Shown here in pieces: positions 1-3,000 of a stretch of DNA of 27,567 nt (position 1 is the first letter of the stretch; each line of letters starts with the position of its first letter). The stretch is taken from IMG/VR virus record IMGVR_UViG_2695420708_000004, one strand, 5' to 3'. The position numbers were made by a program. This stretch comes from a virus. Lineage: Duplodnaviria > Heunggongvirae > Uroviricota > Caudoviricetes.

Positions 1-3000
1 AGTGATAACAGATGTCTGGAAATATAGGGGCAAATCCAATCGTCGCCGTATTCCCGTATTAACAGAGACCGTAGCCCGACGGGGAACTCCTTCTGCGCGA
101 GTGTGCGGGAATAATCAAAAACGATGCACACCGGGGTTACCGGGTACACATATTTCATCATGCCAGCGAGTCCGGTTCTGGCACGGAAGAAACCGGACGT
201 TATGATTTAGTGCGGAAATATTTGTGTAGTGTTCTGTATGTTCTCAGTAAAGAGTAATGAATTATCAAAGGTATAGTAATACCTTTTGTTTTCGTGGATA
301 TTTGTAATCCATCTGAAAACCCCTGCTGTAGCAAGATTTTTCCTGTATTCGTAAAATGATAACTCTCCTGATTTGAATCCTTTTAAGGTGGCTTCTATAA
401 GGCATTTATTTTTTGAAAATCTTACATTTACAACCTTACCCTGTCCTTTTATTAAAACCGTATTATCGTTTTCAAGAACAAGATGAATATTCTCTGTGGC
501 TAAATAGTAAATGTAATGTGAGACATTGTGACGTTTTAGTTCAGAATAAAACCAGTGATAGTTTAAATTATTTCGCACTTTATCGAATATTTGTTTAAAA
601 ATGGCAACCTGAGCCATTGTAGTACCTTCCATGTGATATGAGGGGGCGTAGTCTGCACGATTATCTAAATTGCTTCAATCTGGTCTAACCTGTTTTCTGA
701 GCAATTCAGTAATGTCACTCTTTTCTTTGTTTGCTTCAGGCGAAACTCTTTTTTCTGAGCACAGTCTCCGGCGGCAGGCTTCAATGACCCAGGCTGAGAA
801 ATTCCCGGACCCTTTTTGAACAAGAGCGATGTTAATTTGTTCAATCATTTGGTTAGGAAAGCGGATGTTGCGGGTTGTTGTTCTGCGGGTTCTGTTCTTC
901 GTTGACATGAGGTTGCCCTGTATTCAGTGTCGCTGATTTGTATTGTCTGAAGTTGTTTTTACGTTAAGTTGATGCAGATCAATTAATACGATACCTGCGT
1001 CATAATTGATTATTTGACGTGGTTTGATGGCGTAGATGCACGTTGTGACATGTAGATGATAATTATTATCATTTTGCGGGTCCTTTCCGGCGATCCGACA
1101 GGTTACGGGGCGGAAGGCGCGCGGGTTTTCGCTATTTATGACAATTTTCCGGTTTAAGGCGTTTCCGTTCTTCTTCGCCGTAACCTAATGTTTTTATTTA
1201 AAACACCCCCTGAAAAGAAAGGAAACGACAGGTGCTGAAAACGGGCTTTTTGGCCTCTGTCGTTTCCTTTCTCTGTTTTTGTCCGTGGAATGAACAATGG
1301 AAGTCAACAAAAAGCAGCTGGCTGACATTTTCGGTGCGAGTATCCGTACCATTCAGAACTGGCAGGAACAGGGAATGCCCGTTCTGCGAGGCGGTGGCAA
1401 GGGTAATGAGGTGCTTTATGACTCTGCCGCCGTTATAAGATGGTATGCCGAAAGGGATGCTGAAATTGAGAACGAAAAGCTGCGCCGGGAAGTTGAAGAA
1501 CTGCGGCAGGCCAGCGAGACAGATCTCCAGCCAGGGACTATTGAGTACGAACGCCATCGACTTACGCGTGCGCAGGCCGACGCACAGGAGCTGAAAAATG
1601 CCAGAGACTCCGCTGAAGTGGTGGAAACCGCATTCTGTACTTTCGTGCTGTCGCGGATCGCAGGTGAAATTGCCAGTATTCTCGACGGGATCCCCCTGTC
1701 GGTGCAGCGGCGTTTTCCGGAACTGGAAAACCGACATGTTGATTTCCTGAAACGGGATATCATCAAAGCCATGAACAAAGCAGCCGCGCTGGATGAACTG
1801 ATACCGGGGTTGCTGAGTGAATATATCGAACAGTCAGGTTAACAGGCTGCGGCATTTTGTCCGCGCCGGGCTTCGCTCACTGTTCAGGCCGGAGCCACAG
1901 ACCGCCGTTGAATGGGCGGATGCTAATTACTATCTCCCGAAAGAATCCGCATACCAGGAAGGGCGCTGGGAAACACTGCCCTTTCAGCGGGCCATCATGA
2001 ATGCGATGGGCAGCGACTACATCCGTGAGGTGAATGTGGTGAAGTCTGCCCGTGTCGGTTATTCCAAAATGCTGCTGGGTGTTTATGCCTACTTTATAGA
2101 GCATAAGCAGCGCAACACACTTATCTGGTTGCCGACGGATGGTGATGCCGAGAACTTTATGAAAACCCACGTTGAGCCGACCATCCGCGATATTCCGTCG
2201 CTGCTGGCGCTGGCTCCGTGGTATGGCAAAAAGCACCGGGATAACACGCTCACTATGAAGCGTTTTTCCAATGGTCGTGGCTTCTGGTGCCTGGGCGGTA
2301 AAGCGGCAAAAAACTACCGTGAAAAGTCGGTGGATGTGGCGGGTTATGATGAACTTGCTGCCTTTGATGAGGATATTGAACAGGAAGGCTCTCCGACGTT
2401 CCTTGGCGACAAACGTATTGAAGGCTCGGTCTGGCCAAAGTCCATCCGTGGCTCCACGCCCAAAGTGAGAGGCACCTGCCAGATTGAGCGTGCAGCCAGT
2501 GAATCCCCGCATTTTATGCGTTTTCATGTTGCCTGCCCGCACTGCGGGGAGGAGCAGTATCTTAAATTTGGCGACAAAGAGACGCCGTTTGGCCTCAAAT
2601 GGACGCCGGATGACCCCTCCAGCGTGTTTTATCTCTGCGAGCATAATGCCTGCGTCATCCGCCAGCAGGAGCTGGACTTTACTGATGCCCGTTATATCTG
2701 CGAAAAGACCGGGATCTGGACCCGTGATGGCATTCTCTGGTTTTCGTCATCCGGTGAAGAGATTGAGCCACCTGACAGTGTGACCTTTCACATCTGGACA
2801 GCGTACAGCCCGTTCACCACCTGGGTGCAGATTGTCAAAGACTGGATGAAAACGAAAGGGGATACGGGAAAACGTAAAACCTTCGTAAACACCACGCTCG
2901 GTGAGACGTGGGAGGCGAAAATTGGCGAACGTCCGGATGCTGAAGTGATGGCAGAGCGGAAAGAGCATTATTCAGCGCCCGTTCCTGACCGTGTGGCTTA

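What the first reader, a model, noticed from the sequence alone, without database searches (positions are those of the whole stretch)
1108..1119. cos flanks are lambda-like but the 12-nt cohesive-end core differs at 5 positions
The core reads GGGCGGAAGGCG here against GGGCGGCGACCT in lambda, with the changes clustered in the right half, while the flanking cosQ side and the cosB R-sites are near-identical and Nu1/A are lambda-like. Either this phage has a different cohesive end despite a lambda-type terminase, or cosN is damaged and the prophage cannot package (a cryptic prophage).
Basis: partly seen in the sequence, partly recalled or inferred. Interest (0 to 1): 0.45.

Follow-up and report, generated by a model that had tools for sequence, protein, structure and literature searches.

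The report
Natural variant of lambda cohesive end
This lambda-like prophage has a cohesive-end site whose 12-base overhang differs from lambda's at five positions, all in the half of the site that lambda terminase is known not to read, so it is most likely a working and fairly common natural allele, not a broken site.

Summary
Window 1108-1119 reads GGGCGGAAGGCG against GGGCGGCGACCT in lambda. The alignment to the real lambda record is ungapped, and the differences are at cosN bp 7, 8, 9, 10 and 12. cosQ, the CG pairs at the nick sites, R3, R2 and R1 are identical to lambda. Nu1 is 178/181 identical and gpA 638/641.

The allele is not a private lesion. The same 12-mer occurs in 81 IMG/VR contigs, in 169 places in 158 of 5,426 complete E. 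coli genomes (16 places on plasmids), and in the phage records PhiR46_1 and YDC107_1. It occurs with at least three cosB types and beside a full-length large terminase gene as often as the lambda core does.

No gpA residue tracks the allele, and one locus pairs it with a gpA identical to lambda's. All 21 lambda genes from Nu1 to J are full length in the window.

Published lambda genetics (Feiss et al. 2015, citing earlier mutant work) show that changes at bp 7-12 barely affect cutting. N15, phiD326 and Gifsy-1 vary there naturally.

Verdict: an ordinary functional cosN allele, and a member of a known kind of variation. "Different cohesive end with a lambda terminase" is supported. "Damaged cosN, cryptic prophage" is not. 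Virion ends were not measured here.

The parts
1078..1084 (+). cosQ heptamer GGGTCCT, the packaging-termination signal
   Evidence: Identical to lambda bp 48473-48479 and at the same distance from the nick site. The function is by homology.
1106..1121 (+). cosN: the 12-bp cohesive-end sequence plus the conserved CG pair on each side of the two nick sites (CG|GGGCGGAAGGCG|CG)
   Evidence: Ungapped alignment to lambda. The flanking CG pairs and bp 1-6 are identical to lambda. Nick positions are inferred from homology and from the conserved cosN-to-R3 spacing.
1108..1119 (+). Predicted 12-nt 5' overhang of the left virion end, GGGCGGAAGGCG. The right end would carry its complement, 5'-CGCCTTCCGCCC.
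   Evidence: The same 12-mer is in 81 IMG/VR loci, in 169 places in 158 E. coli genomes, and in PhiR46_1 and YDC107_1. Predicted duplex energy is -18.6 kcal/mol against -19.0 for lambda.
1114..1119 (+). Variant right half AAGGCG (lambda has CGACCT), the part that carries all five differences
   Evidence: One search gives the positions 7, 8, 9, 10 and 12. This is the half of cosN reported as tolerant to mutation (PMC4669245).
1157..1172 (+). cosB R3, the TerS (Nu1) binding site that anchors TerL for the bottom-strand nick
   Evidence: AGGCGTTTCCGTTCTT is identical to lambda bp 50-65 and at the same offset from bp 1.
1173..1215 (+). R3-R2 spacer, which in lambda holds the IHF site I1
   Evidence: Aligns to lambda bp 66-108 without gaps and with a few substitutions. 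IHF binding was not tested.
1216..1231 (-). cosB R2, oriented opposite to R3 and R1
   Evidence: AGAAAGGAAACGACAG is identical to lambda bp 109-124.
1257..1272 (+). cosB R1
   Evidence: CTGTCGTTTCCTTTCT is identical to lambda bp 151-166. The R2-R1 spacer is 1 bp shorter than in lambda.
1297..1842 (+). Nu1, the small terminase subunit (TerS)
   Evidence: 181 aa, 178/181 identical to lambda Nu1.
1817..3742 (+). A, the large terminase subunit (TerL), the endonuclease that nicks cosN
   Evidence: 641 aa, 638/641 identical to lambda gpA (T151S, D185E, T466I). None of these residues tracks the cosN allele across 82 loci.

Best explanation
This is a functional lambda-type cos site carrying a natural alternative allele of the cohesive-end sequence.

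Inferred mechanism, by homology to lambda: Nu1 binds R3, R2 and R1, with IHF bending the DNA at I1. This holds gpA at a fixed distance from R3. gpA nicks the bottom strand between bp 12 and 13 and the top strand just before bp 1. The bottom-strand nick is placed by geometry, not by reading bp 7-12, so the right half of the 12-mer is free to vary.

Virions would then carry 5'-GGGCGGAAGGCG at the left end and 5'-CGCCTTCCGCCC at the right end. These are perfectly complementary to each other and as stable as lambda's ends, so the DNA can circularise after injection.

Shown here: the sequence, its exact register against lambda, its wide and conserved distribution, the absence of any co-varying change in gpA, and the intact late genes. 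Inferred: the nick positions and actual packaging.
For: 1. Register and anatomy. The alignment to lambda is ungapped. cosQ, the CG flanks, bp 1-6, R3, R2 and R1 are identical, and the cosN-to-R3 spacing is unchanged.

2. The allele is common and exactly conserved. It is in 14 IMG/VR contigs with the stricter flanks and 81 loci with looser flanks. It is in 169 places in 158 of 5,426 complete E. coli genomes, 16 of them on plasmids, several of about 46 kb. It is also in Escherichia sp. E1V33.

3. It is in phage records: PhiR46_1, whose record names E. coli ECOR13 as host, and YDC107_1, classified in Ravinvirus.

4. It occurs with at least three cosB types and with TerL lineages about 64% and over 98% identical to lambda gpA. 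Both the lambda core and this core are found with the lambda-type and the GGGGAAAATCATG-type cosB.

5. gpA does not co-vary. Among 40 variant-core and 42 lambda-core loci with gpA over 90% identical to lambda, no residue separates the classes. Locus L185 has the variant core with a gpA 641/641 identical to lambda.

6. There is no sign of decay. A full-length TerL ORF lies next to 35 of 38 variant cores against 44 of 53 lambda cores. All 21 lambda genes from Nu1 to J are full length in the window at 83-100% identity. A relative with this allele, in APEC E14033, is a full lambda-like prophage with int, xis, red genes, N, cI, cro, O, P, Q and lysis genes.

7. Published genetics. [quoted passage not shown] N15's end reads GGGCGGCGTCCG in its own record.

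8. Predicted end-to-end duplex energy is -18.6 kcal/mol against -19.0 for lambda, with equal GC content.
Against: - No virion ends were measured for this prophage or for any carrier of this exact allele.
- I found no paper describing PhiR46_1, so its status as a plaque-forming phage rests on the host field of its GenBank record.
- No phage record begins at this 12-mer.
- The published tolerance data that I could read cover single changes and the two-position N15 allele, not this five-position combination. C10G removes one of the symmetric base pairs of cosN.
- The allele is a minority: 169 places against 8,146 for the lambda 46-mer in complete E. coli genomes.
- Counts from genome collections include clonally related strains and are not independent events.
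- The window lacks the early region, so the inducibility of this particular prophage is unknown.
Confidence: 0.85

Rival explanations
1. cosN is damaged. Terminase cannot cut it properly, so the prophage and its relatives are cryptic and cannot package their DNA.
For: Five changes fall in a 12-bp enzyme site, and C10G removes one of lambda's symmetric base pairs. The allele is much rarer than the lambda core. No virion-end data exist for it.
Against: - A lesion would not be exactly conserved across 81 IMG/VR loci, 158 E. coli genomes and three cosB backgrounds.
- It lies next to an intact TerL at least as often as the lambda core does (35/38 against 44/53).
- The window's 21 head and tail genes are all intact.
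- It is present in phage records.
- All changes lie in the mutation-tolerant half of cosN (PMC4669245).
Confidence: 0.07
2. The variant core is cut only by a co-adapted large terminase. The three gpA substitutions in the window (T151S, D185E, T466I) would then re-tune endonuclease specificity.
For: T466I lies in the C-terminal half of gpA and is somewhat more frequent with the variant core (17/40 against 9/42).
Against: Every one of these substitutions occurs with both cores, and most variant-core loci lack each of them. L185 pairs the variant core with a gpA identical to lambda's. Published work shows that lambda TerL has no cosN specificity in the right half.
Confidence: 0.03
3. The right half of cosN is not merely unconstrained. 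Distinct alleles are kept apart as 'compatibility groups', because ends made from two different alleles cannot anneal.
For: - The six right-half positions differ at 5 of 6 while nearby third codon positions differ at 3-4%. The allele is therefore much older than its surroundings and has moved between backgrounds.
- Predicted lambda-by-variant end pairing keeps only 6 bp, at -9.5 against -19 kcal/mol.
- A two-base mismatch already lowers phage yield about fourfold (PMC4669245).
Against: A phage makes both of its ends from one cosN allele, so ordinary growth places no selection on which allele it has. Many rare intermediates exist (AAGGCT, CAGGCG, CAGACG, CGACCG, AGACCT), as expected from drift plus recombination.
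Confidence: 0.1
4. Sequencing or assembly artefact at the genome ends.
For: cos sites are places where assemblies of virion DNA can be mis-joined.
Against: The identical 12-mer sits in its identical context in well over a hundred independent complete genomes and contigs.
Confidence: 0.01

Closest known systems
cos of phage lambda (cosQ-cosN-cosB, with Nu1/gpA terminase)
   Same: cosQ, the CG flanks, cosN bp 1-6 and 11, R3, R2 and R1 are identical, and the cosN-to-R3 spacing is unchanged. Nu1 is 98% and gpA 99.5% identical.
   Different: cosN bp 7, 8, 9, 10 and 12 differ (AAGGCG against CGACCT). The R2-R1 spacer is 1 bp shorter.
cosN of N15 and phiD326 (GGGCGGCGTCCG), the characterised natural right-half variants
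   Same: Variation is confined to the right half. Position 12 is G, as here. Phage yields with lambda TerL did not differ between the N15 cosN and lambda's own (PMC4669245).
   Different: Two changes (bp 9 and 12) against five. N15 has a single-R cosB and a TerL about 65% identical to lambda's, whereas this site has lambda's own cosB and terminase.
[quoted passage not shown]
   Same: Further natural right-half alleles in lambda-like phages (PMC4669245; PMC12315714).
   Different: These are different substitutions. The carriers have different heads or hosts.
Survey of natural cosN variation: Vahanian, Oh, Sippy and Feiss 2017, Virology 509:140-145
   Same: From its title and the way it is cited, it covers exactly this subject and may list this allele.
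   Different: I could not read it, so I cannot say whether GGGCGGAAGGCG is listed there.

Membership tests
lambda-type cos site | cosQ heptamer about 30 bp upstream of the top-strand nick | tested here: met
   GGGTCCT at 1078-1084, the same offset as in lambda.
lambda-type cos site | Conserved CG dinucleotides flanking both nick positions and a conserved left half (bp 1-6 GGGCGG) | tested here: met
   Window 1106-1121 reads CG GGGCGG AAGGCG CG.
lambda-type cos site | cosB with R3, I1, R2 and R1, and R3 at a fixed distance from cosN (bp 50-65) | tested here: met
   R3 at 1157-1172, R2 at 1216-1231 and R1 at 1257-1272 are all identical to lambda. There is no indel between cosN and R2.
lambda-type cos site | Adjacent Nu1/A terminase genes of the lambda family | tested here: met
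   Nu1 is 178/181 and gpA 638/641 identical to lambda.
lambda-type cos site | Cutting yields 12-nt 5' complementary overhangs at these positions | not testable with these tools
   This needs virion DNA end sequencing or an in vitro cos-cleavage assay.
tolerated natural right-half cosN variants (N15 / phiD326 / Gifsy-1 kind) | All differences from lambda lie in bp 7-12 | tested here: met
   The differences are at bp 7, 8, 9, 10 and 12 only.
tolerated natural right-half cosN variants (N15 / phiD326 / Gifsy-1 kind) | No matching specificity change is needed in TerL | tested here: met
   No gpA residue segregates with the core across 82 loci. A gpA identical to lambda's is paired with the variant core in L185.
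tolerated natural right-half cosN variants (N15 / phiD326 / Gifsy-1 kind) | Carriers are viable phages | tested here: inconclusive
   The evidence is indirect. The allele is in the phage records PhiR46_1 and YDC107_1, beside intact terminase and late genes, and in a full-length prophage relative. There is no plaque or virion-end data for this allele.

The most novel reading that the evidence does not exclude
The right half of cosN is a small, old polymorphism that recombination carries between otherwise nearly identical lambdoid genomes. Its alleles would define cohesive-end compatibility groups. Chromosomes or hybrid concatemers cut at two different alleles would have ends that pair over only 6 of 12 bases and would fail to circularise, giving a cheap barrier between co-resident lambdoid phages, phage-plasmids and satellites.
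Probability: 0.1. Interest if true: 0.4.

Novelty: new member of a known kind. Interest (0 to 1): 0.15.

Why it matters
It matters little for biology at large. The result is a clean natural confirmation that lambda terminase places its bottom-strand cut by distance from cosB and not by reading the sequence.

There are two practical consequences:
- Software that finds lambda-like cos sites by the literal 12-mer GGGCGGCGACCT will miss about 2% of such sites in E. coli, and could wrongly call those prophages defective.
- Cosmid or in vitro packaging work with such phages should expect ends that do not anneal to lambda's.

Tried and rejected
- I searched the paper library for the 12-mer, its complement and a related allele. 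Only unrelated hits came back.
- I searched for a paper on the PhiR phage set by name, accession and host. Nothing was found, so PhiR46_1's status as a live phage rests on its record alone.
- The one paper devoted to natural cosN variation (Vahanian et al. 2017) is not held.
- I hoped the satellite EcCICFT073, which lambda and phi80 package experimentally, would carry a variant core and so give direct evidence. Its two cos sites and the neighbouring prophage in CFT073 all have the lambda core, so it says nothing either way.
- The one-genome-per-species scan found the G12 class of cores in only one genome, Escherichia sp. E1V33. It gave no wider host picture.
- I rejected the co-adapted terminase idea after the covariation test.
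- I rejected an alignment shift after the ungapped alignment to the real lambda record.
- My own recollection that N15 has lambda's cohesive end was wrong. Its record and the literature show two differences.

Full report
**What is there.** Window 1108-1119 reads GGGCGGAAGGCG and occurs once in the window. I fetched the lambda record NC_001416, joined its right and left ends, and aligned window 900-1300 to the junction. Inside the 12-nt core the only differences are C7A, G8A, A9G, C10G and T12G.

The other cos elements match lambda:
- cosQ (GGGTCCT, 1078-1084), the CG pairs on either side of the two nick positions, and bp 1-6 are identical.
- The three Nu1-binding repeats R3 (1157-1172), R2 (1216-1231) and R1 (1257-1272) are identical. 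The only length change is a 1-bp deletion between R2 and R1.
- Nu1 (1297-1842) is 178/181 identical and gpA (1817-3742) is 638/641 identical.

**Is the clustering more than chance?** The surrounding non-coding DNA differs from lambda at about 6%. Third codon positions differ at 2.7% in Nu1 and 3.7% in A. At the flank rate, five differences in six adjacent positions has a probability near 5e-6. The right half of cosN is therefore a small island of high divergence in a nearly lambda-identical background.

**Is it a private lesion?** No.
It gave 116 lambda cores and four others, one of them this allele.
- A search for this allele with its flanks found 14 contigs. A looser pattern (any core starting GGGCG and ending in G) found 103 loci, and 81 loci in the pooled set carry exactly GGGCGGAAGGCG.
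- In 5,426 complete E. coli genomes, a 46-mer centred on the allele found 169 places in 158 genomes. Any 28-base seed within that query must span the variant right half. Sixteen places are on plasmids, several of about 46 kb. The lambda 46-mer found 8,146 places in 4,290 genomes, so this allele accounts for roughly 2% of such sites.
- Two records in the phage collection carry it: PhiR46_1 (the record gives E. coli ECOR13 as host) and YDC107_1 (classified in Ravinvirus, the N15 genus).
- These counts include related strains and are not independent events.

**The allele sits in several backgrounds.** It occurs with the lambda cosB. It also occurs with a second cosB type (GGGGAAAATCATGTCGG...) whose TerL is about 64% identical to lambda gpA. 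A third type (TAAGGGGACTGGTGG...) has no terminase gene nearby and is probably a satellite island. The lambda core is also found with the first two types.

Other right-half alleles exist:
- AAGGCT, AAGCGT, GAGCGT, CAGGCG, CAGACG, CTGACG and CGACCG.
- CAGGCG and CAGACG also occur with T at bp 6.
- AGACCT is in the phage record PhiR70_1.
- N15 itself reads GGGCGGCGTCCG.

**Does the terminase co-vary with the allele?** I extracted gpA from every locus that had enough sequence. Among 40 variant-core and 42 lambda-core loci with gpA over 90% identical to lambda, no residue separates the two classes. The window's three substitutions (T151S, D185E, T466I) each occur with both cores. Locus L185 pairs the variant core with a gpA 641/641 identical to lambda. 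PhiR46_1's gpA differs from lambda at three residues, N9D, S21A and T466I. No special terminase is needed.

**Is there decay?**
- Where at least 3.3 kb follows the core, a full-length TerL ORF is present at 35 of 38 variant cores and 44 of 53 lambda cores.
- In the window, all 21 lambda genes from Nu1 to J are recovered full length in a single frame, at 83-100% protein identity.
- A relative with this cos allele, in APEC E14033, is a full lambda-like prophage next to ybhC. It has int, xis, exo, bet, gam, N, repressor, cro, cII, O, P, Q and lysis genes.
- The window itself does not include the early region, so I cannot say whether this particular prophage is inducible.

**Why a lambda terminase can use it.** This part rests on published lambda work, not on my tests. 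Feiss et al. 2015 (PMC4669245) summarise the following:
- Many mutations at bp 7-12 have minimal effect, while symmetric changes in the left half are severe. G2C lowers yield about tenfold, whereas C11G has no phenotype.
- This asymmetry depends on the nearness of cosB.
- phiD326 and N15 differ from lambda at bp 9 and 12, and Gifsy-1 at bp 8, 9 and 11.
- The authors conclude that maintenance of bp 7-12 is not under selection.

A later review (PMC9026076) adds that the TerL endonuclease is not highly sequence-specific and depends on TerS bound at cosB for accurate nicking. All five changes here fall in that tolerant half, and everything known to matter is unchanged. The predicted duplex formed by the two ends is as stable as lambda's (-18.6 against -19.0 kcal/mol, equal GC). 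A lambda end and a variant end would pair over only six bases (-9.5 kcal/mol).

**Conclusion.** This is most likely a working cos site with an alternative cohesive-end sequence, one member of an already described kind of natural variation.

Three things remain unshown: the actual virion ends, packaging of this five-position combination by terminase, and whether this exact allele is already listed in Vahanian et al. 2017, which I could not read. No paper in the searchable library holds the 12-mer in a phage context.

The one mildly interesting residue is population-genetic. The allele is far more diverged than its surroundings and is shared across cos and terminase lineages. That implies an old polymorphism moved around by recombination in the conserved flanks. 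Whether mismatched ends make the alleles into compatibility groups is open, and I rate it unlikely to matter.

Noticed in passing
window 20159-22519 (+), just after J (16612-20091): A 786-aa ORF is a partial tandem copy of the tail-tip protein J. It aligns to J residues 418-1158 and is almost identical up to about residue 1000. It then diverges over the C-terminal part, about 150 aa, that in lambda binds the receptor. It looks like a spare alternative host-range cassette. A search of complete E. coli genomes with the J/J' junction found only four places covering at least 80% of it. One of these (strain FY26) is contiguous, with 'host specificity protein J' followed by a 'phage tail tip domain' gene.
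   Followed up: partly
window 22590-26770: Downstream of the J copies lie three features. The first is a Lom-like ORF (22590-23072) only 38% identical to lambda Lom. The second is an uninterrupted 1029-aa side tail fibre gene (23165-26254), unlike the frameshifted stf of laboratory lambda. The third is a tfa homologue split between two reading frames (26254-26376 and 26372-26764), which suggests a frameshift or a mosaic join.
   Followed up: no
L246 (E. coli APEC E14033, NZ_CP126948) about 26100-38500: In a full-length prophage relative with the same cos allele, the major capsid gene E is split by an island of about 11 kb. The island carries an integrase, primase, SSB, and its own capsid and decoration genes. 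It resembles the published helper-embedded satellites that insert into prophage late genes (the paper is listed).
   Followed up: no
L227, L228, L229 (IMG/VR metagenome contigs): These environmental contigs keep a cosQ-like GGGTCCT, the ACG before the nick and the right flank CGCGGGTTTTCGCTAG. Their 12-mer is wholly different (GCGCGAAACGAC), including the left half that is constant in the E. coli set. The flanks may be more widely conserved than the cohesive end itself.
   Followed up: no
L098 and similar IMG/VR loci (cosB type TAAGGGGACTGGTGG...): These cos sites have variant cores (GGGCGTCAGGCG, GGGCGGAAGGCG, GGGCGGCTGACG), no lambda-type R sites and no large terminase gene within 3.3 kb. 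They are probably satellite (PICI-type) cos sites. Satellites therefore also carry non-lambda cohesive ends. The characterised satellite EcCICFT073 has the lambda core.
   Followed up: partly
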